Assembly: GCA_045593845.1 (NCBI GenBank)
Contig: JAZNXK010000011.1
Location: 97,198-161,197 of the forward strand
Origin: Alphaproteobacteria bacterium
GTDB lineage: Bacteria > Pseudomonadota > Alphaproteobacteria > RF32 > CAG-239
Reading direction: 5' to 3'
Length of the DNA: 64,000 nucleotides
Within the stretch, counting starts at the first letter, position 1, and each line of letters begins with the position of its first letter. Shown one piece after another: positions 43,569-62,865 of the stretch. Position numbers and translations under genes: made by a program. Under the pieces are notes generated by a model. The model saw only the letters and a list, made by a program, of their open reading frames with translations. It was not told the DNA's origin and did no database searches.

Positions 43569-43643
43569 GCGGGCGTAGCTCAGGGGTAGAGCGCAACCTT
43601 GCCAAGGTTGATGTCGAGGGTTCGAATCCCTTCACCCGCTCCA
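43569..43643 (+). tRNA. tRNA-Gly (anticodon GCC)
   Basis: Hand-folded: anticodon stem CAACC/GGTTG with loop TTGCCAA, T arm GAGGG-TTCGAAT-CCCTT, encoded CCA. One C-A mismatch in the acceptor stem. Confidence 0.8.
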
Positions 43644-43644
43644 T

Positions 43645-43713
43645 TTTTTAAGACCTCCCAAAACGGGAGGTTTTTTTATTATTCGGGTGAAGGGATTAAA
43701 ATCCCTGTCTTGC
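43645..43713 (+). repeat. 69-bp unit, copy 1 of 2: terminator hairpin GACCTCCC-aaaac-GGGAGGT + T-run, then an inverted copy of the tRNA-Gly 3' arm (CGGGTGAAGGGATT) in a GGGATTAAAATCCC palindrome
   Basis: Direct comparison with 43872-43940 gives ~92% identity. The 14-nt stretch AATCCCTTCACCCG of the tRNA is present as its reverse complement. Confidence 0.55.
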
Positions 43714-43871
43714 TCCTAGGTGTTGCGTTAATCGCAACACCAAGTCGCTTCGGTCACTCGTGTTGTAACATTTGCTTTGCACACTGTCGTGGCTTTGCAA
43801 ATTAACAACACTTCGCCTGTCGTTAAAAATTGCTCATTTGAGAGCAATTTTTTGCCTCCAGCCTGCTCCAA

Positions 43872-52102: not shown

Positions 52103-54559
52103 ATGAGCGCAACTAATACACATTATAACGGTAAGGATTTTTCAGAGTGGCAGAAAGAATGGGCTTTGGAGGATCGTTATAATTTCAGGACTATTGAAAA
52201 GAAGTGGCAGAAGATTTGGGATGATGAAAAAGTCTATCGTGCCGAAGTAGATAAAGATAAGGAAAAATTTTATCTGTTGGTTGAATTTCCTTATCCGTCA
52301 GGTGTCGGCTTGCATGTTGGCCATCCGCGTTCTTATACGGCTTTGGATGCAGTTGCGCGCAAAAAGAGAATGCAGGGATATAATGTTTTGTATCCGATGG
52401 GCTTTGATGCATTTGGTTTGCCGGCAGAGAATTATGCTGTTAAAACAGGTATTCATCCGGCTGTTTCCACAAAGCAAAATATTGCCAATTATAAACGTCA
52501 ATTAAAGTCTTTGGGATTTAGTTTTGATTGGGACAGATGTATAGAAACCTGTGATCCCGAATATTATAAGTGGACACAGTGGATGTTTTTGAAATTTTTT
52601 GAAAAAGGACTGGCTTATAAGGCAAAAATGCCGATTAACTGGTGTCCGAGTTGCAAAGTCGGTTTGGCAAATGAAGAAGTTGTTGACGGTAAATGTGAAC
52701 GTTGCGGTGCCGAAGTTGAGCGTAGAGATAAAGAACAATGGATGATTGCCATAACAAAATATGCCGATAGGTTGATTGATGATTTGGATGAACTGAATTT
52801 TATCGATAGAGTTAAGACCCAGCAAGTAAACTGGATTGGCAGATCACAAGGTGCTGAACTTGATTTTGATTTTGCCGATGAAAAATTGCGTGTGTTTACA
52901 ACTCGTCCTGATACAGCTTTCGGTGTGACTTATATGGTTATGGCGCCTGAACATCCGTTTGTAGCAAAATATATGGATAGGTTTGAAAACAAAGATGAAG
53001 TTTTGGCTTATGTTGCAGAGGCGGCAAAAAAATCTGATTTACAACGTACTGCAGGTGATGAGAAGACCGGTGTGGAGTTAAAGGGAATTAAAGCAAAGAA
53101 TCCGTATAACGGACAGATGATACCGGTATTTATTTCAGATTATGTTCTGACCGGCTACGGAACAGGAGCAATTATGGCAGTTCCGGCACATGACCAAAGA
53201 GACTATGACTTTGCCAAAGCTTTTGATTTGCCGATTATTCAAGTTTTGGAAGGCGGAGATATATCGCAACAAGCTTGGGAAGAAGACGGAGCACATATCA
53301 ATTCCGAATTTTTGAATGGTATGAATAAAGAAGACGGTATGCGTGCGGCGATAGATTATGCGGTTAAGAACGGTTTTGGTCAGGCAAAAGTTAATTTTAA
53401 GCTCAGAGACTGGGTTTTTTCACGCCAACGTTATTGGGGCGAACCGATACCAATGGTTTATTGTGAACACTGCGGTTGGCAACCTTTGCCGGAATCGGAA
53501 TTACCGCTTGAACTGCCAGAAGTTACTGACTTTTTGCCCAATGATGATGGTGCTTCCCCTCTGGCAAAAGCTACAGATTGGGTTAATACTGTTTGTCCGA
53601 AATGCGGCGGAAAAGCTCGCCGTGAAACTGATGTTATGCCAAATTGGGCAGGTTCTTCATGGTATTTCTTGAGATATTGTGATCCTCATAATGATAAAGA
53701 GTTTGCCTCTAAAGAAGCTCTTGATTATTGGATGAATGTGGACTGGTATAACGGAGGTATGGAACATACGACGTTGCACCTGTTATATTCGAGATTTTGG
53801 CATAAGTTTTTGTATGATTGCGGTTGCGTTTCTACCAAGGAGCCATATAAGAGAAGAACTTCGCATGGTATGATTTTGGCTGCTAATGGTGAAAAAATGT
53901 CAAAATCACGCGGTAATGTGGTTAATCCGGATGAAATTGTCGAAAATTTCGGAGCTGATACATTCAGATTGTATGAAATGTTTATCGGTCCGTTTGATCA
54001 AGCGGCAATGTGGTCGGAAGAAAGCTTGATGGGGGTTTATCGTTTTGTCGGTAAAATATACTCATTATTCAAGAAAGTTTCTAAATCAAGCCCGACGGAA
54101 AAAGATTTGAGAGCAATGCATAAGTGCATTTTGGAAGTTGATGAGAGAATCGAGACAATGAAGTTTAATACTGCAGTTTCATCACTGATGACTTATGTAA
54201 ATTATTTGAGCTCAATGGATGAAGTTCCACAAGAAATGTATGAGACATTATTGAAAATCTTGTCACCTTTTGCTCCTCATTTGAGCGAAGAAATGTGGGC
54301 AAGACTCGGCCATAGCAAAACAATTGTCAATGAGAAATGGCCTGAAGGTGATAAGAAATTGGCAGAAGATAATGTGGTAACTTTGGCCGTGCAGATTTGC
54401 GGCAAAATGCGCGGCACTATCGAAATGCCAAAAGATTCTCCAAAAGAAGAAGTGGAGAAAAAAGCTTTGCAACTTGAAAATGTTGCTCGTCAAATTGAGG
54501 GTTGCAATATTAAAAAAATAATTGTTGTACCAAATAGGATTGTGAACATTGTTGTATAA
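52103..54559 (+). CDS. leuS: leucine--tRNA ligase
   Basis: HVGHP HIGH motif, KMSKS, and 818 aa. Confidence 0.95.
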   Translation: MSATNTHYNGKDFSEWQKEWALEDRYNFRTIEKKWQKIWDDEKVYRAEVDKDKEKFYLLVEFPYPSGVGLHVGHPRSYTALDAVARKKRMQGYNVLYPMGFDAFGLPAENYAVKTGIHPAVSTKQNIANYKRQLKSLGFSFDWDRCIETCDPEYYKWTQWMFLKFFEKGLAYKAKMPINWCPSCKVGLANEEVVDGKCERCGAEVERRDKEQWMIAITKYADRLIDDLDELNFIDRVKTQQVNWIGRSQGAELDFDFADEKLRVFTTRPDTAFGVTYMVMAPEHPFVAKYMDRFENKDEVLAYVAEAAKKSDLQRTAGDEKTGVELKGIKAKNPYNGQMIPVFISDYVLTGYGTGAIMAVPAHDQRDYDFAKAFDLPIIQVLEGGDISQQAWEEDGAHINSEFLNGMNKEDGMRAAIDYAVKNGFGQAKVNFKLRDWVFSRQRYWGEPIPMVYCEHCGWQPLPESELPLELPEVTDFLPNDDGASPLAKATDWVNTVCPKCGGKARRETDVMPNWAGSSWYFLRYCDPHNDKEFASKEALDYWMNVDWYNGGMEHTTLHLLYSRFWHKFLYDCGCVSTKEPYKRRTSHGMILAANGEKMSKSRGNVVNPDEIVENFGADTFRLYEMFIGPFDQAAMWSEESLMGVYRFVGKIYSLFKKVSKSSPTEKDLRAMHKCILEVDERIETMKFNTAVSSLMTYVNYLSSMDEVPQEMYETLLKILSPFAPHLSEEMWARLGHSKTIVNEKWPEGDKKLAEDNVVTLAVQICGKMRGTIEMPKDSPKEEVEKKALQLENVARQIEGCNIKKIIVVPNRIVNIVV

Positions 54560-55103
54560 AAGATTTATATTTTTAATGCTGATAAGTTTTGTTTCGGCAT
54601 GCGGTTTTGAACCTTTGTATGTTGAGCGCAAAGGTGATAATGCTTGGTATTTTAAGGGTGATTTTGATACCTCCATTTCTCAAGAAATGGCAAAAATCAA
54701 GGTTATGCCGATAAAAGACAGATTCGGACAAGTAATGAGAAATGATTTGATTGATTTACTTTCCCCGAAAGGTCAGCCGCAAAAGCCAAAATATAGGTTG
54801 TTTGTGACCTTGGAAAGCAAAATAGAGAGAGATCAAGCTTTGCGTTCTGATATTACGGCAACGCGTAAGATGGTGAAATACAAAGTTTCTTATTATATGG
54901 CGGATAATGATAGGACTTTATTAAAAGGAGACAGTGTCGCATATACCGGCTATGATATTTTGGCGAATCCTTATTCTACGACGATAGCAAAGAAAAAAGG
55001 CGATGAAGACGCGGCAAGAATCATTGCTAATGATATTTCTTCGCGTTTGGGCGCATATTTTCACAGTATTGCAACCAAACGGAGCATAGAAAATGATTTT
55101 TAA
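54549..55103 (+). CDS. lptE: LPS-assembly lipoprotein LptE-like
   Basis: Lipobox VSAC|G, and the conserved position between leuS and holA. Confidence 0.5.
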   Translation: MLYKRFIFLMLISFVSACGFEPLYVERKGDNAWYFKGDFDTSISQEMAKIKVMPIKDRFGQVMRNDLIDLLSPKGQPQKPKYRLFVTLESKIERDQALRSDITATRKMVKYKVSYYMADNDRTLLKGDSVAYTGYDILANPYSTTIAKKKGDEDAARIIANDISSRLGAYFHSIATKRSIENDF

Positions 55104-56102: not shown

Positions 56103-56801
56103 ATGACAAGCGAGAGGTTTCAAAAATTTATTGAAATGTGGCAAAAAGATTTTGCCATTGATCGCAGTATTGATGAAAAAGTTTGCGTCGATAAAGACGG
56201 CAACTCTATTCCGTGGTACACATATCCGGCTATTGAATATCTATCACAGTTCGATTATTCGACCTTAAAAATTTTTGAGTTCGGGTGCGGGTATTCTTCG
56301 GCTTTTTGGGCAGAAAGAGCCTTAAAAGTAGTTAGTATTGAGGATAAAACCGAATGGTTCGAAAAATGGAAAAGCGAGTTCAAATATGAAAATTTAGACA
56401 TCAGATGGCGCGACGAAGGTGAAGGTTATGATGCGGCAATTTTTGAAGATAAAGAAAAATATGATGTAATCGTAATTGACGGAAAGCGCCGAAAAGAATG
56501 TGCCGAAGCGGCAGTAAAAGCTTTAAATACTGGCGGAATGATTATTTTGGATGACAGCGACAGAATTAATACCAGTGAAGAATATGTGCAAGCGATAAAA
56601 ATTTTACGAGCGGCAAATTTGTTGCAGGTGGATTTTTACGGATTTTGTCCTATGAATTGCTATACCAAAACGACGTCGCTATTTTTCAGCAGAGAATGGA
56701 ATTTTGCTTCAAAAAATAAAATTCAGCCGATTAACGGTTGGGGAAATTTGTGGTCTATGCAACGAAAAAAAAGAAAAAATTTTTTTAATGACTTTGGTTA
56801 A
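56103..56801 (+). CDS. class I SAM-dependent methyltransferase-like protein of unknown specificity
   Basis: FEFGCGYSS (motif I-like) and DVIVIDG (acidic loop). Confidence 0.35.
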   Translation: MTSERFQKFIEMWQKDFAIDRSIDEKVCVDKDGNSIPWYTYPAIEYLSQFDYSTLKIFEFGCGYSSAFWAERALKVVSIEDKTEWFEKWKSEFKYENLDIRWRDEGEGYDAAIFEDKEKYDVIVIDGKRRKECAEAAVKALNTGGMIILDDSDRINTSEEYVQAIKILRAANLLQVDFYGFCPMNCYTKTTSLFFSREWNFASKNKIQPINGWGNLWSMQRKKRKNFFNDFG

Positions 56802-56840: not shown

Positions 56841-58010
56841 ATGGAGATTTGTTTTCATAATGCGACGCTTATTAACGGCTATTCGGTAATGCCTGATTGC
56901 GGAGTTTTGATTAAACAATATAAGATTATTGATGTATTTAATGAAGCTCGCTTTAAGCAAAAGCAATTTAAGCCGGAGACAAAATTTATTGACCTTAAAG
57001 GGGCATATATTGCGCCAGGGTTGATTGATACGCATATTCACGGAATCTGCGGTTTCGGCACAGATGATATGGATAGCGAATCGATACTCAAAATGTCGGA
57101 GATTTTGCCGCAATACGGAGTTACGTCATTTATTCCCACCTTATATTCCGCGCCCAAAGAAAAACTGTTCAAAGGTATGATTAGCATTCTTAAAGCTATG
57201 GGACAGGAAAAAGGTGCAAAAATATTGGGTATGCATTTGGAAGGACCTTTTATTTCTCCGGCACGTTTGGGTGTGCAGTCGCCGGATGCGATTTCTCCGG
57301 TTGACATTGAGTATATGAAAGAAATTATTGCTTTGGGACAAGGCAATATTATCAATATGACGGTTGCACCGGAGTTGAAAGGTATGCGTGAATTGGCTTT
57401 GATGTGTATTGACCAGGGAATTATTTTGCAATCCGGACACAGCAATGCAACTTATCAGCAAATGGTTGAAGCCATGCAGGCACGCATTATGCATGTTACG
57501 CATTTGTTTAATGCCATGAGCCGAATTCACCACAGAGACCCCGGAGTGGTCGGAGCAGTGTTTATTCATCCGGAGTTGTCTTGCGAGATTATTGCTGACG
57601 GATTTCACATCAACCCGGATATTGTAAAATTTTTGTTCAGATGCAAGCCGGTTGATAAGGTTGTTTTGGTTACAGATGCCCTAAAACCGACCAAGCAAAA
57701 AGCAAAACATTTATTTGCCAACGGAGAAGAAGTGTATTTGGATAAATGCTTTTTGAGAAAATCTGATGACGTGATTGCCGGTTCGGCATTGACGATGATT
57801 GATGGTGTTAAAAATTTGGTATCTTGGGGATTGCCGATTGAGCAGGCGGTGCAAACGGCATCATATAATCCGGCAAATATTATGAAGCAGGAACATTTGG
57901 GGCTTGTTGCACCTGGGTATGATGCTGATTTGGTTGTTTTTGATAAGAATTTTAAGGTTTTGAAGACCGTTATTAAGGGTAATGTTTTTGAAAAAGGAAT
58001 TTGCAAATGA
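56841..58010 (+). CDS. nagA: N-acetylglucosamine-6-phosphate deacetylase
   Basis: GLIDTHIHG motif and a strong RBS. Confidence 0.85.
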
Positions 58011-58789
58011 GAGTTATTATAAAACCCGATTATGACAGCATTTCGGCTTGGGCGGCTGAGTATATTGCCGACAAAATAAATGCCTTTGCGCCAACAGAAA
58101 ACAGACCGTTTGTTTTGGGTTTGCCGACAGGCTCGACTCCTTTGGGAGTTTATAAAGAGCTTATAAATATGTATAAGCAAGGCAAAGTTTCTTTTGCAAA
58201 TGTCATAACTTTTAATATGGATGAATATGTCGGTTTGCCGGCGGACCATCCGCAGAGTTATCATTATTTTATGTTTGAGAACTTTTTTAATCATATAGAT
58301 ATTAAAAAAGAGAATATTCATATTTTGGACGGCATGGCAAAAGACATTCAGGTTGAATGCGAAAATTATGAAAAAGCGATTGTCGGTTGCGGCGGTATAG
58401 ATTTGTTTTTGGGAGGAATCGGCGAGGATGGACACATTGCTTTTAATGAGCCTTTTTCATCATTAACTTCTCGCACAAGGGTAAAGACTTTGACCTCTGA
58501 TACAATCAAAGTAAATTCACGCTTTTTTGATTATGATATCAGCAAGGTGCCGACAAGGGCGATGACTGTCGGAGTGGGGACGATTATGGATGCAAAAGAA
58601 GTGATTATTTTGGCAAACGGAGTTAAAAAAGCCAAAGCAATTTATCATGGAATTGAGGGGGCGGTTAGCCACAAGTGGACAATCAGCGTTTTGCAAAATC
58701 ATCAACACGGGATTATTGTATGCGACGATGCGGCGGCAAGCGAACTTGAGCCGGAGACGATAAAATATTTCAAAGATATTGAAAAATAG
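58001..58789 (+). CDS. nagB: glucosamine-6-phosphate deaminase
   Basis: Full-length similarity (262 aa). Confidence 0.9.
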
Positions 58790-58828
58790 AAAATCTTTTT
58801 TGAAACTATACGATACCTTTTTAGGCTC

Positions 58829-59590
58829 TTATCCGTTTTGATTGGGCCTTGTGATGGCGTATGACTTCATCGCTGTTGTTAAAAAATCTTTTTCTTGTTT
58901 TTGATCTGCTTTCAATTTTTCAATTTGTATGTTATGATAGGTATCCATTAGTCCTTCGCACTTTGATAAACCTTTAGAATTGTTACTGCATATAGGAGCC
59001 GCTTGAGCTAAAAATTTTTGCGTCTGGCTAATTTCATAATCCGATATTTTATTAAATTCTGTTTCTTTTAGTTTCTTGTCGAGCTCACTGACCATAAGCG
59101 TTGTAAGTTCAGAATTGGTTGATAATTTGCCTTCTTCATTTGGCCTATGTTCTATGAGTTTATGATAAAAATCTATTAGATGATGTATTGGGAAATTCTT
59201 TTCATCGCCCATTAAGTCGGGTGCAGCTTGGGTCACATTGGCTGCTGCTAGGATGATATTTTTTCCAAGTTCCTTCGCATCACTATTTTTACCTTCCTGA
59301 CAACGATAAAGCTCAGCCCAATAACGCCAGCCTTGAGCGGCAGCAGTTTCTCTCATCAGTGTGGCAAAATGTTCTTTTGTAGGTTTTCTTTCTATCGTCG
59401 GGGCAATCATATCTGTGATTTCAGTAACATCCAATTCTTGTTTGGATAATAAATTACTTAATAAACTAATTTCTCTATCTGTTACTTCATTGGGATGGAG
59501 CTTTCTTTCTGTTTCTAGAAATTTTTTTTGTGAAGATGTTTCTTGTGCTTGTTGTTCAATCTCATCGGGAAATAACATTCTTTTTAGCAT
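58829..59590 (-). CDS. hypothetical protein, paralog A of a duplicated pair (~40% aa identity to 59796-60521)
   Basis: Shared blocks NxVTDREISLL, W.YW.ELY and KL(S/T)TNSEL. AGGAG RBS. Confidence 0.5.
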   Translation of the reverse strand: MLKRMLFPDEIEQQAQETSSQKKFLETERKLHPNEVTDREISLLSNLLSKQELDVTEITDMIAPTIERKPTKEHFATLMRETAAAQGWRYWAELYRCQEGKNSDAKELGKNIILAAANVTQAAPDLMGDEKNFPIHHLIDFYHKLIEHRPNEEGKLSTNSELTTLMVSELDKKLKETEFNKISDYEISQTQKFLAQAAPICSNNSKGLSKCEGLMDTYHNIQIEKLKADQKQEKDFLTTAMKSYAITRPNQNG

Positions 59591-59662
59591 ATCTTTTCTC
59601 CTATAAAGTAATAAACGATATAGCAAGTTTACTATATTTATTTAATTTTGTCAAATTTTTTA

Positions 59663-59756
59663 TTATAGCTCTTTCAGCACTTCGTCAACATGGCCGGATA
59701 CTTTGACTTTGCGCCATTCTTTAATGACTTTCAGTTGTTCGTCCAAAATGAAAGTC
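59663..59756 (-). pseudogene. duplicated 3' fragment of bcp (last ~31 codons + stop), identical to 60595-60688
   Basis: Nucleotide alignment of 59633-59756 with 60564-60688 is ~97% identical. Confidence 0.55.
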
Positions 59757-59795
59757 TATTCCTTTTGCCAATATTTGATAGGAGGATTTGATATT

Positions 59796-60521
59796 TTATA
59801 ATTCCATTTCTTTTTGTTTAGCTTTTATGGGTGAGGTTAAACCAAGTATGTTTATTACGCTATTTTCTTCACTTTTCTGCTCTCTTCTTAGCTGTTCTTT
59901 TTCTATATTATGAATGCTTTTTATAATCTCTATGCATTTTGATGAAGCTGTAGAATGATTTTTAATTTCTTCTGCGGCTGTGTATACAAATTTTTTAATC
60001 ATCATAAAATCCCTCTCTTGAAGAAAAGGGGTGTCGGAGGGATCTGACATTAAATTATTATAAAACTCATTTGTCATGAGTGATGCCAATTCTGAATTTG
60101 TTGTTAATTTATTCTGAGTCGAATTTTCTTTGTTTCTGATTTTTATAAGTCTAACGTAAAATTTAGCTAATGCGTGTTTTCTATCAGCACAGTCATATAC
60201 TCCGTTTGAAGCTTGGATAATATTTTTACAAATTCCTTTGCTGTCATTTTCTTCCTGCTGGCTGTACAGCTCAAACCAATAATCCCATTTATATGTATAG
60301 GGTTTTAATGAGCCATTCATTAACAAAGCAATTTGTTCTTTTGAAGGATTTCTTTCAACTGTTGGTGTCATTATGCTTGCAATTTCATCGAGTTTCCAAC
60401 TTTTAGATTCGAATATGTCATTTAATAGGCTAATTTCTCTGTCAGTTACATTATCAGGGTTAGATGCTCTTTCATTGAATAGAAGTTTTTGCTGTAAAAT
60501 GACGTTATTTTTTTGTTCCAT
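59796..60521 (-). CDS. hypothetical protein, paralog B of the duplicated pair
   Basis: See paralog A. Confidence 0.5.
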   Translation of the reverse strand: MEQKNNVILQQKLLFNERASNPDNVTDREISLLNDIFESKSWKLDEIASIMTPTVERNPSKEQIALLMNGSLKPYTYKWDYWFELYSQQEENDSKGICKNIIQASNGVYDCADRKHALAKFYVRLIKIRNKENSTQNKLTTNSELASLMTNEFYNNLMSDPSDTPFLQERDFMMIKKFVYTAAEEIKNHSTASSKCIEIIKSIHNIEKEQLRREQKSEENSVINILGLTSPIKAKQKEMEL

Positions 60522-60594
60522 CTTTTATTCCTTGTAAGTGGTTGTATAGTGAGGATAGTTTATTATATTTATTTAATTTTGTCAAACTTTTTCA

Positions 60595-61035
60595 TTATAG
60601 CTCTTTCAGCACTTCGTCAACATGGCCGGATACTTTGACTTTGCGCCATTCTTTAATGACTTTCAGTTGTTCGTCCAAAATGAAAGTCGAGCGTTCAATT
60701 CCCATATATTTGCGTCCATACATGGACTTTTCTTTCCATACGCCAAATGCTTCGGACAAAGTATGTTCAGGGTCGGATAGCAGAACAAAATTTAAGCCTT
60801 GTTTTTGCTTAAATTTGATATGGCTGTTTATACTGTCGGGGCTTACGCCGATTACAGTTGCTTTGGAGCAAAGGCGGTTGTAGTTATTGCGAAAGTCGCA
60901 GGCTTCTTGCGTGCAACCGGAAGTGTTGTCTTTGGGGTAAAAATACAGAACTGTTTTCTTGCCTTTGAAATCACTTAATGAAAAGGTTTTTTCCACTCCG
61001 TTTTCATCAATTCCCTGCAGTTTTATATTTATCAT
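60595..61035 (-). CDS. bcp: peroxiredoxin Bcp (thiol peroxidase)
   Basis: FYPKDNTSGCTQEAC active-site motif. Confidence 0.85.
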   Translation of the reverse strand: MINIKLQGIDENGVEKTFSLSDFKGKKTVLYFYPKDNTSGCTQEACDFRNNYNRLCSKATVIGVSPDSINSHIKFKQKQGLNFVLLSDPEHTLSEAFGVWKEKSMYGRKYMGIERSTFILDEQLKVIKEWRKVKVSGHVDEVLKEL

Positions 61036-61092: not shown

Positions 61093-62865
61093 TTATTTGC
61101 TCTTGTACATATCTCGCGGTGTGTAGTGAGTATGCAAGAGATGATGTGCTTTTTCGCCACCGGGATTGCCGATAAAATCTTTATACAAGGTTTTAATCGA
61201 CTCATTATGGTGAGAAAAGCGGTTTTTAGCGTTCAAATCTTCTTCAAACAAACCGTTAGCACGTTTCTGTCTGATTTCATCAGTAATACCATAAGGTTTA
61301 GCAAAAGGAGCACCGATAACGCGCGGTTGTCCGCCACCGGCAACACAACCGCCGCGGCAAGCCATTACCTCTACAAAGTGATAGGGCAATTCTTCGCCGT
61401 TGGCTTTTGCTTGGCGAATTCTATCCAAGATAATTTCTACATTGCCGACACCATGAGCAACTGCAATGCGAATATCTTTGCCGTTGATGGTAACCGTGGT
61501 TTCTTTAATGCCTTCCAAACCTTCAATATCGGTAAAGTCCGGTTGAGCCAATTCTTGTCCGGTGATGTAGAAATATGCTGTGCGCAAAGCCGCAATCATA
61601 ACGCCGCCGGTTGCACCGAAAATTGTGCCTGCACCGGAATATTCGCCCAAAGGATTGTCCGCTGTTTTTTCTGCAATATTACAAAAATCTATGCCGGCTT
61701 GCTTAATCATTTTGGCAAATTCGCGCGTGGTGATAGATACGTCAATATCCTGATAACCGGAGGAACTCATATCTTGACTGCGGACGATTTCCCATTTTTT
61801 GGCGGTGCAAGGCATTATTGATACAACACGAATTTTTTTCGAGTCAATGCCGTTTTTCTCGGCAAAATAAGTTTTTGCCAAAGCACCGACCATTGCTTGC
61901 GGAGATTTGCAGGTTGAAAAATGCGGAATCATATCGGAATTGAATTTTTCCAGCATATCAACCCAAGCAGGACAGCAAGAAGTAAACATCGGCAAGCTTT
62001 CCGGTTCTTGAGTAAAGCGGCGAACAAACTCGGTGGCTTCTTCAATGATGGTTAAGTCAGCACCGAAATTGGTATCGAATACTTTATCAAAACCCATACG
62101 GCGCAAAGCGGCATAAGTTTTTCCGGTCAAGTTTTTGCCGAACTCAAAGCCAAATTCTTCGCCGATAGCAACGCGAACTGCCGGTGCAATTTGCACAATG
62201 GTGAAAATTTCCGGATCACGCAACATTTCCCAAACTCTGCCGGTGTCATCATATTCTACAATAGCACCGGTCGGGCAGTGAGCTGAACATTGTCCGCATT
62301 TGATACACGGACTGTCTTCCAAGTTGATACCGTTGGCCGGAGTTATGCGAGTGGCCAAACCGCGGTTTAGGTAGCTTAAAGCCCAAATATTTTGTTTGTT
62401 TTGGCAGATGTCAACACAACGACCGCAAAGTATGCACTTGGAACTGTCAAGGACGATGGCTTTAGTAGAATCGTCGATGGGTGTTCTTTTGGTTAAATTG
62501 GGTAATGGTGCGTCGGTAATGTTGAATACATTAGCCATATCTTGCAATTCACAATGGCCGGAACGGGCGCATGAAAGACAAGAATTCGGGTGGTTGCTCA
62601 ATATCAATTTTAAAACCATGCGGCGAACTTCAAAAAGTTCTGCATCGGTGGTAATAACTTCCATACCTTCGGCAACAGGTGTGCAACAAGAACGCATAAT
62701 ACGTCCGTTGACGCGGACAATACACATTCCGCAACCGGCAGACGGGTCAACGTCAGGATGTTTGCACAAGGTCGGAATTTCGATTTGCACACTGCGTGCG
62801 GCGTCCAGAATAGAGGTGCCGGCGGCAACTTCAACTTCTTGATTATCAATTTTTAATTTTACCAT
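61093..62865 (-). CDS. hydA: [FeFe]-hydrogenase catalytic subunit HydA with N-terminal 2Fe-2S and 2x[4Fe-4S] domains
   Basis: H-cluster motifs read from the translation: L1 TSCCPAW, L2 MPCTAKKWE, L3 EVMACRGGCVAGGGQP. Ferredoxin-like Cys clusters CILCGRCVDIC and CIKCGQCSAHCP. Confidence 0.85.
   Translation of the reverse strand: MVKLKIDNQEVEVAAGTSILDAARSVQIEIPTLCKHPDVDPSAGCGMCIVRVNGRIMRSCCTPVAEGMEVITTDAELFEVRRMVLKLILSNHPNSCLSCARSGHCELQDMANVFNITDAPLPNLTKRTPIDDSTKAIVLDSSKCILCGRCVDICQNKQNIWALSYLNRGLATRITPANGINLEDSPCIKCGQCSAHCPTGAIVEYDDTGRVWEMLRDPEIFTIVQIAPAVRVAIGEEFGFEFGKNLTGKTYAALRRMGFDKVFDTNFGADLTIIEEATEFVRRFTQEPESLPMFTSCCPAWVDMLEKFNSDMIPHFSTCKSPQAMVGALAKTYFAEKNGIDSKKIRVVSIMPCTAKKWEIVRSQDMSSSGYQDIDVSITTREFAKMIKQAGIDFCNIAEKTADNPLGEYSGAGTIFGATGGVMIAALRTAYFYITGQELAQPDFTDIEGLEGIKETTVTINGKDIRIAVAHGVGNVEIILDRIRQAKANGEELPYHFVEVMACRGGCVAGGGQPRVIGAPFAKPYGITDEIRQKRANGLFEEDLNAKNRFSHHNESIKTLYKDFIGNPGGEKAHHLLHTHYTPRDMYKSK

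What the first reader, a model, noticed from the sequence alone, without database searches (positions are those of the whole stretch)
58829..60700. Tandem paralogs with only ~40% aa identity but a 97%-identical 125-bp upstream anchor that includes a copied piece of bcp
The 125 bp upstream of each paralog (59633-59756 and 60564-60688) are near-identical. They consist of the last 94 nt of the bcp coding sequence plus the -35 TTGACA of a shared promoter (TTGACA-17-TAAACT). The 42-nt 5'UTRs and the coding regions, by contrast, have diverged heavily. A plain old duplication would not keep a non-functional bcp fragment intact while the CDS drifts to 40% identity. This looks instead like a recombination anchor at which alternative gene cassettes are exchanged, either by gene conversion or as a cassette-acquisition site. 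The proteins are hydrophilic and have no recognisable domain.
Basis: seen in the sequence. Interest (0 to 1): 0.65.

Follow-up and report, generated by a model that had tools for sequence, protein, structure and literature searches.

The report
Two divergent alleles stacked by recombination
A fast-evolving gene of unknown function that sits alone next to a peroxidase gene (bcp) in related bacteria is present here as two very different versions in a row, and the copied piece of bcp between them looks like a recent recombination scar, not a dedicated cassette-capture site.

Summary
A 131-nt direct repeat (59626-59756 and 60557-60688, 97% identical) precedes two minus-strand genes, A (58829-59590) and B (59796-60521), which are 37% identical in protein. 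The repeat is the last 94 nt of bcp plus a whole TTGACA-17-TAAACT promoter.

Twelve related metagenome contigs carry one gene at this position (bcp-A-nagB or bcp-C-nagB). Only this genome has the extra 932-bp unit.

The 39 nt after B's stop are a relic of a family gene's last codons. The join to the bcp fragment lies in a 7-nt microhomology, ACTTTCA, which is the mark of illegitimate recombination.

The bcp part shows 0/95 differences, whereas flanking genes differ from relatives at dS 0.55-0.77 and A versus B is saturated. So A and B did not diverge in place.

Allele A is 99.3% identical to a lineage whose flanks are only 88-89% identical, which indicates recent horizontal exchange.

Best reading: recent stacking of a foreign allele at a hypervariable locus, by homologous recombination on one side and illegitimate recombination on the other.

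The family is new: about 17 clusters among 1.84 billion representative proteins, a confident all-alpha model, and no Pfam or structural match. I found no integrase or att-like sites.

Interest is moderate.

The parts
60595..61035 (-). Intact bcp (Bcp/PrxQ-type thiol peroxidase, 146 aa)
   Evidence: Pfam AhpC-TSA E=2.5e-34. NCBIfam PRK09437 scores 132.7 bits, just under its cutoff of 140. It is syntenic in all related contigs.
60557..60688 (-). Anchor copy 1: last 94 nt of intact bcp (60595-60688) plus the promoter of B (-35 TTGACA 60580-60585, -10 TAAACT 60557-60562)
   Evidence: The promoter allele keeps the G after TAAT and the G before TTTGACA, as in the L010/L011 lineage.
60681..60687 (-). 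ACTTTCA inside bcp: the recipient-side microhomology of the illegitimate joint
   Evidence: Three-way register of anchor copy 1, anchor copy 2 and L012.
59796..60521 (-). Gene B (241 aa): divergent family member with a unique 35-nt 5'UTR (60522-60556)
   Evidence: 37% identical to A. Its only match among the 5.8 billion clusters is itself. It keeps all nearly invariant family residues. GC3 is 0.26, against 0.39-0.44 in the flanking genes.
59756..59794 (-). Relic of the last 12 codons plus stop of a family gene (ISNPPIKYWQKE*), out of frame with B. It fills the spacer between B and the bcp fragment.
   Evidence: 86% identical over 44 nt to the 3' end of the C-type gene in L012 (...SVKSWQKE*).
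59749..59755 (-). ACTTTCA at the novel joint. It is shared by the sequence just 3' of a family gene's stop codon (as in L012) and by bcp at position -94.
59626..59756 (-). Anchor copy 2: non-functional bcp 3' fragment (59663-59756) plus the promoter of A (-35 at 59649-59654, -10 at 59626-59631)
   Evidence: The promoter part is identical to the L001 lineage, while the first 37 nt of the fragment are of the window/L010 type.
58829..59590 (-). Gene A (253 aa from the ATG with a GGAG ribosome-binding site; the ORF extends to a TTG at 59626, which lies inside the -10 box)
   Evidence: AF2 model: pLDDT 87, pTM 0.83, ten helices.
58898..59722 (-). Recombination tract: 825 nt, 99.3% identical to lineage L001, embedded in flanks that are 88-89% identical
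   Evidence: dS for A is 0.029, against 0.55-0.77 for bcp, nagB and hndD.
58001..58789 (+). nagB (glucosamine-6-phosphate deaminase): the conserved right border of the variable slot, convergent with A
   Evidence: Pfam Glucosamine_iso on the orthologues; ORF.

Best explanation
The interval between bcp and nagB is a hypervariable slot. In related lineages it holds a single gene of a new, fast-evolving, all-alpha protein family, and that gene has its own sigma-70-type promoter directly after the bcp stop codon.

In this genome a second, deeply divergent allele (B) has been stacked in front of the resident allele (A) by one recombination event between two haplotypes. B arrived with its own variant of the promoter, its own 5'UTR, and a relic of an older gene's tail.

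On the left the exchange ran through homologous bcp sequence. On the right it was illegitimate. The ACTTTCA that lies just after a family gene's stop codon in the donor was joined to the ACTTTCA that lies 94 nt before the bcp stop in the recipient.

The outcome is bcp - promoter - B - relic tail - [last 94 nt of bcp + promoter] - A - nagB. This is a 932-bp net insertion that duplicates the 131-nt anchor.

The bcp fragment is a passenger scar. It is intact because the event, or the last gene conversion, is young, not because it has a function. Each gene keeps a full promoter, so both are probably expressed. The 95-131-nt direct repeats make the arrangement unstable, since loop-out would delete B.

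What is shown: the anatomy, the absence of the unit from relatives, the microhomology, the relic tail, the heterogeneous divergence, and the horizontal exchange of A. What is inferred: the order of events, the donor haplotype (bcp-B-nagB), the uptake route, and expression.

The family's function is unknown. Its pattern is dN/dS of 0.3-0.7, low GC3, presence/absence variation, and transfer between lineages. My guess from this is a protein-binding factor under conflict-type selection, such as phage or competitor interaction.
For: 1. Twelve related contigs spanning at least four lineages carry a single gene between bcp and nagB. They are L001, L002-L007 and L009-L011 with A types, L012 with type C, and L016 with D-bcp-A. 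Alignment shows one clean 932-bp extra unit in the window. Several of these contigs are k141 assemblies, and from my knowledge of the assembler's contig naming, k=141 exceeds the 95-nt exact repeat, so collapse of a tandem is unlikely. B has no homologue in those samples.

2. Junction anatomy. The 39-nt spacer after B matches the 3' end of the C-type gene in L012 (38/44 nt). The three sequences share only ACTTTCA at the crossover point.

3. Divergence is heterogeneous. There are 0/95 differences in the bcp part and 4/36 in the promoter (p=0.005), the UTRs cannot be aligned, and the CDSs are 38% identical with pS 0.63. Zero differences in about 119 effectively neutral sites bounds pairwise neutral divergence at about 0.05 or less. 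The lineage split is at dS 0.55-0.77.

4. The two promoters have separate histories. Copy 2 is identical to the L001 type. Copy 1 shares the ancestral G and the GTTTGACA variant with L010.

5. A lies in an 825-nt tract that is 99.3% identical to L001, with flanks at 88-89%. A's dS is below that of the flanks in every lineage pair tested.

6. A second family member (D) sits between the hndD terminator and bcp in L013 and L016. In L013 it is flanked by a duplicated 28-nt terminator hairpin with 27/28 identity. That is the same footprint of an insert bracketed by a duplicated upstream sequence.

7. None of the ten neighbouring large ORFs scanned against Pfam is a recombinase. Five are housekeeping genes (rsmB, leuS, holA, nagA, a hydrogenase subunit) and five match nothing.
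Against: - No B-only haplotype (bcp-B-nagB) and no second B-A genome was found, so neither the donor nor the age of the tandem has been observed.
- The perfect 95-nt identity requires the donor and recipient to have had identical bcp 3' ends, or a later gene conversion.
- The microhomology on the donor side is inferred from a C-type relative (L012), not from a B-type donor.
- Only one genome shows the structure and its reads could not be inspected.
- Fused two-domain members elsewhere (P0024, halves 50% identical) show that in-place duplication also occurs in this family.
Confidence: 0.6

Rival explanations
1. Ancient in-place tandem duplication of [bcp 3' end + promoter + gene]. The two genes diverged as paralogues to 37% identity. 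Repeated gene conversion kept only the anchor homogeneous, because it is the only part still similar enough to recombine. Relatives lost B by loop-out between the anchors, a deletion that always removes B and leaves bcp-A.
For: - Direct repeats of 95-131 nt spaced 932 nt apart are substrates for both conversion and deletion (established knowledge of RecA-dependent recombination).
- Loop-out explains why relatives keep only A.
- Tandem duplication with divergence does occur in the family (P0024, halves 50% identical).
- In L013 the two terminator copies within the genome (27/28) are more alike than the post-D hairpins of L013 and L016 are to each other. This hints at concerted evolution.
Against: - Every one of at least four related lineages would need an independent loss or an early loss, yet no B-like gene or relic is seen anywhere.
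- The promoter parts have distinct lineage affinities, copy 2 with L001 and copy 1 with L010. The conversion tract would have to stop exactly at the bcp stop codon.
- The non-functional relic tail is still 86% identical to a functional C tail, no more diverged than ordinary sequence between lineages.
- B's UTR is unlike all the others, while types A and C share theirs.
Confidence: 0.2
2. One reading: the 131-nt anchor is an evolved recombination site at which expression-ready cassettes (anchor + promoter + variable gene) are captured and exchanged. A plausible route is a circular loop-out intermediate that reintegrates by a single crossover, which would be an integrase-free cassette system.
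For: - The slot content varies between strains.
- A was exchanged between lineages with its left breakpoint in the anchor.
- The D insert is likewise bracketed by a duplicated upstream element.
- In the remote locus L014, a family member and an unrelated ORF share a near-identical promoter core, downstream segment and terminator.
- Single-crossover integration of a circle would give exactly this repeat structure.
Against: - The anchor is found only at this locus in the 64-kb window.
- No recombinase was found among the neighbouring ORFs scanned.
- Arrays longer than two were never seen.
- The joint sits at a microhomology beside a relic tail, as expected of a one-off illegitimate event.
- Ordinary homologous recombination in conserved flanks explains the allele exchange without any special site.
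Confidence: 0.12
3. Artefact: a chimeric read or a misassembly joined two co-occurring strains' haplotypes (bcp-B and bcp-A) into a false tandem.
For: - The source is a single 208,946-nt NCBI contig of an uncultured-type organism and its reads are unavailable.
- The A segment is 99.3% identical to another lineage, as strain mixing could produce.
- In-vitro template switching also uses microhomology (my own knowledge).
Against: - The joint sequence GGAATAG-ACTTTCA-TTTTGGACG exists in neither putative parent, so a k-mer or overlap assembler could not create it without reads that contain it.
- The bcp fragment at the joint is of the window's own type, not the L001 type.
- Both flanks continue colinearly into housekeeping genes.
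Confidence: 0.05

Closest known systems
Homology-facilitated illegitimate recombination (HFIR) during uptake of foreign DNA. Described in Acinetobacter, Streptococcus pneumoniae and Pseudomonas stutzeri, as cited in PMC5361080 and PMC3240628.
   Same: There is a homologous anchor on one side (bcp) and an illegitimate joint at a short microhomology on the other (7 nt, ACTTTCA). The result is a net gain of DNA that relatives lack.
   Different: The donor, the uptake route and the left crossover have not been observed. Here the illegitimate joint falls upstream of the end of the homologous region, so part of the anchor is duplicated and nothing from the recipient is deleted.
Displacement arrays of Rhs/CDI toxin tips and T6SS effector-immunity modules (orphan arrays; Kirchberger et al. 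2017, PMC5361080, and references therein to C-terminal displacement in rhs).
   Same: A new variant enters next to a conserved upstream sequence. The older variant is pushed downstream and keeps a piece of that conserved sequence. The outcome is a row of divergent, horizontally acquired alleles, not duplicates.
   Different: No toxin or immunity domains are present and there is no T6SS or CDI context. The anchor is the 3' end of a separate housekeeping gene plus a promoter, not the constant part of the same ORF. The displaced gene keeps a complete promoter and so is not a silent orphan. The array has only two members.
Tandem duplication by unequal or illegitimate crossover at microhomology (the classical mechanism of bacterial gene duplication; from my own knowledge).
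   Same: The novel joint links the end of the unit to its start at a 7-nt microhomology, and the unit boundary falls inside a neighbouring gene and leaves a gene fragment.
   Different: The two units are not copies of each other. The CDSs are 37% identical, the UTRs are unrelated and the promoter alleles differ, so the crossover must have joined two different haplotypes, or else the copies were replaced later.
Integron gene cassettes
   Same: Variable genes are arranged in a row at one chromosomal site, with the newest one nearest the conserved side.
   Different: There is no integrase and there are no attI/attC sites. The genes carry their own promoters.

Membership tests
HFIR / displacement-type insertion | The inserted segment is absent from the orthologous site of related genomes | tested here: met
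   Twelve related contigs carry one gene between bcp and nagB, and the window has a clean 932-bp extra unit.
HFIR / displacement-type insertion | One joint lies at a short microhomology (about 3-12 nt) between otherwise unrelated sequences | tested here: met
   ACTTTCA is the only stretch shared by bcp at -94, the joint, and the sequence after the C-type gene's stop in L012. The donor side is inferred from a relative.
HFIR / displacement-type insertion | The other end was resolved by homologous recombination in a conserved anchor | tested here: inconclusive
   bcp is intact and continuous, but without a donor sequence no left breakpoint can be mapped.
HFIR / displacement-type insertion | The inserted DNA comes from another strain or lineage | tested here: inconclusive
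   B has a unique UTR and CDS and no homologue in the databases. Its promoter allele differs from A's. No donor was found.
HFIR / displacement-type insertion | DNA is taken up by natural transformation or conjugation | not testable with these tools
   The organism was not identified; both genome-contig scans found nothing.
In-place tandem duplication with divergence | Neutral divergence of the duplicated non-coding or non-functional parts is comparable with that of the genes | tested here: not met
   0/95 differences in the bcp fragment, against pS 0.63 (saturated) between A and B. Continuous gene conversion would be needed to rescue this.
In-place tandem duplication with divergence | Both copies, or traces of the lost one, are present in related lineages | tested here: not met
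   No B-like sequence exists in any related contig or in the protein databases.
Integron / site-specific cassette system | An adjacent integrase, and attC-type imperfect inverted repeats bounding promoterless cassettes | tested here: not met
   None of the ten neighbouring ORFs scanned is a recombinase; five are housekeeping genes and five match nothing. No such inverted repeats were found. Each gene has its own promoter-like site. Only the 64-kb window could be examined.
Rhs/CDI/T6SS orphan toxin-immunity arrays | Polymorphic toxin tip and immunity gene pairs downstream of a conserved core or secretion genes | tested here: not met
   No toxin, immunity or secretion domains were found in Pfam, NCBIfam or PADLOC. 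The neighbours are hydrogenase, bcp, nagB and nagA.
Rhs/CDI/T6SS orphan toxin-immunity arrays | The displaced module retains a piece of the conserved upstream sequence | tested here: met
   A is preceded by the last 94 nt of bcp. This is a resemblance in mechanism only.
Bcp/PrxQ peroxiredoxin (the upstream gene) | AhpC-TSA fold with a family-level score | tested here: met
   PF00578 scores 118 bits against a cutoff of 26. The NCBIfam equivalog PRK09437 scores 132.7 against a cutoff of 140, just below.

The most novel reading that the evidence does not exclude
The bcp locus of this clade could be an integrase-free cassette site. Expression-ready units (promoter + variable gene of a new conflict-related all-alpha family) would be exchanged between species. 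They would be stacked by RecA-dependent single crossovers at short conserved anchors, namely the bcp 3' end for slot 2 and the hndD terminator for slot 1, with loop-out circles as the mobile intermediate. The shared promoter and terminator frames around unrelated ORFs in the remote locus L014 would be another instance of the same system.
Probability: 0.1. Interest if true: 0.7.

Novelty: new variant of a known kind. Interest (0 to 1): 0.38.

Why it matters
The locus is a clean, sequence-resolved example of how a bacterium can come to carry two very different alleles of one gene side by side. The evidence points to a single crossover between haplotypes, homologous on one side and at a microhomology on the other, not to duplication followed by slow divergence. 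That process is usually discussed only for toxin-immunity arrays.

It also marks out a previously undescribed protein family. The family is small, has a confident all-alpha model and has no known relatives. It evolves fast, moves between lineages that are about 88% identical, and occupies two variable slots around bcp. That pattern makes it a candidate for a role in phage or inter-bacterial conflict.

In practical terms, near-identical upstream anchors beside divergent paralogues can be recombination scars and need not be functional elements.

Tried and rejected
Searches that found nothing:
- Two scans of genome contigs, one with protein patterns and one with a 37-nt anchor pattern.
- Two scans of metagenome contigs, one with the anchor and one with the promoter pattern.
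- tblastn of B against phage and plasmid records.
- The exact-sequence look-ups of the window's bcp and of B, which gave no contig.

Function searches with no usable result:
- Pfam, NCBIfam, PADLOC, PHROGs and PDB sequence searches gave nothing above threshold.
- I rejected three weak hits as noise or composition: DUF3349 (E=0.013, below cutoff), RT_UG20 on P0024, and P0027, a 1273-aa repetitive surface protein.
- Foldseek against PDB and BFVD gave only generic helical-repeat similarities with E of about 0.02 or worse.
- Rfam found no RNA family in the region.

Ideas considered and dropped:
- That the bcp fragment is conserved because it carries an upstream promoter element. Identity extends to every third-codon position that varies between lineages, which points to recency or conversion, not to selection on a binding site.
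It is uninformative because dS is saturated at 1.39.
Full report
**1. Observation**

All relevant genes lie on the minus strand: hndD-like [FeFe]-hydrogenase subunit (61093-62865), bcp (60595-61035), gene B (59796-60521) and gene A (58829-59590). nagB (58001-58789) lies on the plus strand and converges on A.

A direct repeat precedes both A and B.
- The 95 nt at 59662-59756 and 60594-60688 are identical. None is expected by chance.
- The similarity continues through a complete promoter-like site, TTGACA-17-TAAACT, to 59626 and 60557. That stretch has three substitutions and one indel.
- The repeat is therefore 131/132 nt at about 97% identity. It consists of the last 94 nt of bcp followed by the promoter.
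- Differences are clustered: 0/95 in the bcp part against 4/36 in the promoter part (p=0.005).
- Beyond the -10 box the 35-nt leaders cannot be aligned.

A and B are genuine homologues at 37% identity (E=1e-38).

**2. What relatives show**

B has no relative among 5.8 billion protein clusters apart from itself. A has close relatives at 81-97% identity in gut-type metagenome assemblies.

Their contigs give the following arrangements.
- L001, L002, L004-L007 and L009-L011 read bcp - promoter - A - nagB, with a single gene. L003 carries the same A type followed by the convergent downstream gene, but starts too late to include bcp.
- L012 reads bcp - promoter - C - nagB. C is a third type, 33-36% identical to A and B.
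- A fourth type, D, lies between the hndD terminator and bcp in L013. L016 carries D-bcp-A on one contig.

The family therefore occupies two variable slots around bcp, and slot 2 normally holds one gene. Aligning the window to L001 and L002 shows one clean 932-bp extra unit. Several of the contigs are k141 assemblies. From my knowledge of the assembler's contig naming, k=141 is longer than the 95-nt exact repeat, so collapse of a tandem in them is unlikely. B-like sequence is also absent from those samples.

**3. The junction**

The 39 nt between B's stop codon and the bcp fragment (59756-59794) read, in another frame, ISNPPIKYWQKE*. They are 86% identical over 44 nt to the 3' end of the C gene in L012 (...SVKSWQKE*).

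In L012 the stop codon is followed by ACTTTCA-GCTTTCTA, where CTA is the reverse complement of the convergent nagB stop codon. In the window's bcp the sequence at -94 is CTCG-ACTTTCA-TTTTGG. At the joint the window reads GGAATAG-ACTTTCA-TTTTGG. ACTTTCA is therefore a 7-nt microhomology at the crossover. One partner is the sequence just 3' of a family gene and the other is bcp codon -31. This is the signature of illegitimate recombination, and it explains why a piece of bcp was copied.

**4. Age and ancestry**

Synonymous divergence between the window and lineage L001 is 0.59 for bcp, 0.55 for nagB and 0.77 for hndD. A versus B is saturated (pS 0.63, dS 1.39).

Zero differences in the 95-nt fragment, which amounts to about 119 effectively neutral sites over both copies, bound the pairwise neutral divergence of the two anchors at about 0.05. 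So the genes did not diverge after the event that made the anchor, unless gene conversion keeps erasing differences.

The promoters have different affinities. Copy 2 is identical to the L001 type. Copy 1 keeps the ancestral G after TAAT and shares GTTTGACA with L010/L011. B's UTR is unique, whereas types A and C share theirs.

**5. Allele A is itself a recent import or export**

Identity between the window and L001, by segment:

| Segment | Identity |
|---|---|
| hndD | 88.0% |
| bcp 5' part | 89.0% |
| First 37 nt of the bcp fragment | 70.3% |
| Remaining 58 nt of the fragment | 98.3% |
| Promoter | 100% |
| 5'UTR | 97.1% |
| A codons 1-233 | 99.4% |
| A tail | 81.0% |
| A-nagB intergenic region | 82.1% |
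| nagB | 88.9% |
| nagA (part) | 86.6% |

A's dS is 0.029 against L001, 0.12 against L010 and 0.35 against L002. The flanking genes give 0.5-1.1 for the same pairs. A's dN/dS is 0.3-0.7, against 0.01-0.08 for the flanks. A and B have GC3 of 0.27 and 0.26, against 0.39-0.44 in the neighbours. The gene is thus a fast-evolving accessory gene exchanged horizontally between lineages, with the left breakpoint inside or next to the anchor.

**6. Best explanation**

One crossover between two haplotypes, bcp-pB-B-relic-ACTTTCA... and ...ACTTTCA(bcp -94)...-pA-A-nagB, produces exactly the observed structure. It would be homologous in bcp and illegitimate at ACTTTCA.

This is homology-facilitated illegitimate recombination, or an unequal crossover between different alleles. 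It is the process proposed for orphan arrays in T6SS, Rhs and CDI loci (PMC5361080).

The bcp fragment is a scar. The duplicated promoter means the displaced allele A is probably still expressed. The repeats make B liable to loss by loop-out.

The D insert in L013 is bracketed by two copies of the hndD terminator hairpin (27/28 identical). This is a second case of the same footprint at the same locus.

**7. Rivals**

- An old tandem with gene conversion of the anchor and loss of B elsewhere cannot be excluded. It needs several losses, a conversion tract that ends exactly at the bcp stop codon, and two promoters with different lineage affinities (confidence about 0.2).
- A dedicated cassette site has some suggestive support from the variable slots, the D footprint and the shared frames in L014. 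It lacks a recombinase, further anchor copies and longer arrays (about 0.12).
- An assembly artefact is unlikely because the joint sequence exists in neither parent haplotype (about 0.05).

**8. The proteins**

A profile search of 1.84 billion representative proteins finds only 17 hits at E of 0.001 or better. At least one of them (P0027) is spurious. Two are fused two-domain forms; the halves of P0024 are 50% identical.

Conserved motifs are ERKxxPxxVTDREIxLL, PTIERxPSxEQ and LGKNIIxAA. AlphaFold gives a confident ten-helix model (pLDDT 87, pTM 0.83). It has no significant Foldseek match in PDB or BFVD, only generic helical-repeat hits. Pfam, NCBIfam, PADLOC, PHROGs and PDB sequence searches are all empty.

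Function is unknown. The evolutionary pattern suggests a binding protein under conflict-type selection, but that is inference only.

**9. Context**

The neighbours with a Pfam match are housekeeping genes: leuS, holA, rsmB, nagA, nagB and the hydrogenase. Five of the ten large ORFs scanned match no family. No mobile-element gene was found among those scanned, and Rfam finds nothing in the region. The organism could not be named.

**10. Verdict**

The anchor, however, is best explained as the scar of a recent homologous-plus-illegitimate recombination event that stacked a foreign allele.

This is a new variant of a known kind of event, involving a previously undescribed protein family. Interest is moderate.

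Noticed in passing
window 43635-43721 and 43862-43948: An 87-nt direct repeat (91% identical) spaced 227 nt apart. It begins with the last 9 nt of tRNA-Gly(gcc) (43569-43643) and includes a terminator hairpin. This looks like an att-type duplication of a tRNA 3' end, or the remnant of a small insertion.
   Followed up: partly
L013 2508-2535 and 3375-3402; L016 1-830: A fourth family type (D) lies between the hndD terminator and bcp. In L013 it is bracketed by two copies of the same 28-nt terminator hairpin (27/28 identical). L016 shows D-bcp-A on one contig, so the family occupies two slots around bcp.
   Followed up: partly
L014 156-1157 and 2109-3036: In a remote lineage, a family member (P0022) and an unrelated 288-aa ORF with no known relatives share four things: a near-identical promoter core (25 nt, 96%), a similar ribosome-binding region, a 22-nt downstream segment (91%) and a terminator hairpin (27 nt, 96%). 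Their coding sequences are unrelated, so the expression frame is the same while the gene differs.
   Followed up: partly
L005 about 2050-2131 and L006 about 1190-1270: In these strains bcp-A-nagB is preceded only by the last 21 nt or so of hndD plus its terminator, followed by unrelated genes (DUF3656 on the opposite strand). A rearrangement breakpoint therefore lies just inside the 3' end of hndD, mirroring the bcp fragment in the window.
   Followed up: no
L012 213-370: The C-type gene has a frame disruption after a purine run (GAGGAAGAAGAAAGAAAGC) near its 5' end. As assembled, only a 203-aa ORF starting at a TTG is called. This could be a pseudogene, slippage-prone phase variation or an assembly error.
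   Followed up: no
window 58790-58828: The sequence after A's stop codon (AAAAAGGTATCGTATAG-TTTCA) loosely resembles the WQKE*-ACTTTCA tail seen after B and C. A-type genes may therefore also sit upstream of a decayed relic of an older tail. I judged this by eye and did not test it statistically.
   Followed up: no
window 58829-59626: Some public annotations (P0002, P0005, 265 aa) start A at a TTG that lies within the -10 box. The ATG at 59590, with a GGAG 9 nt upstream, is the more plausible start and gives 253 aa.
   Followed up: partly
window 48124-50606, 44055-45593, 54549-55103, 56103-56801: Five sizeable ORFs near the locus (467, 359, 512, 184 and 232 aa) have no Pfam match at E of 1e-5 or better.
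   Followed up: no
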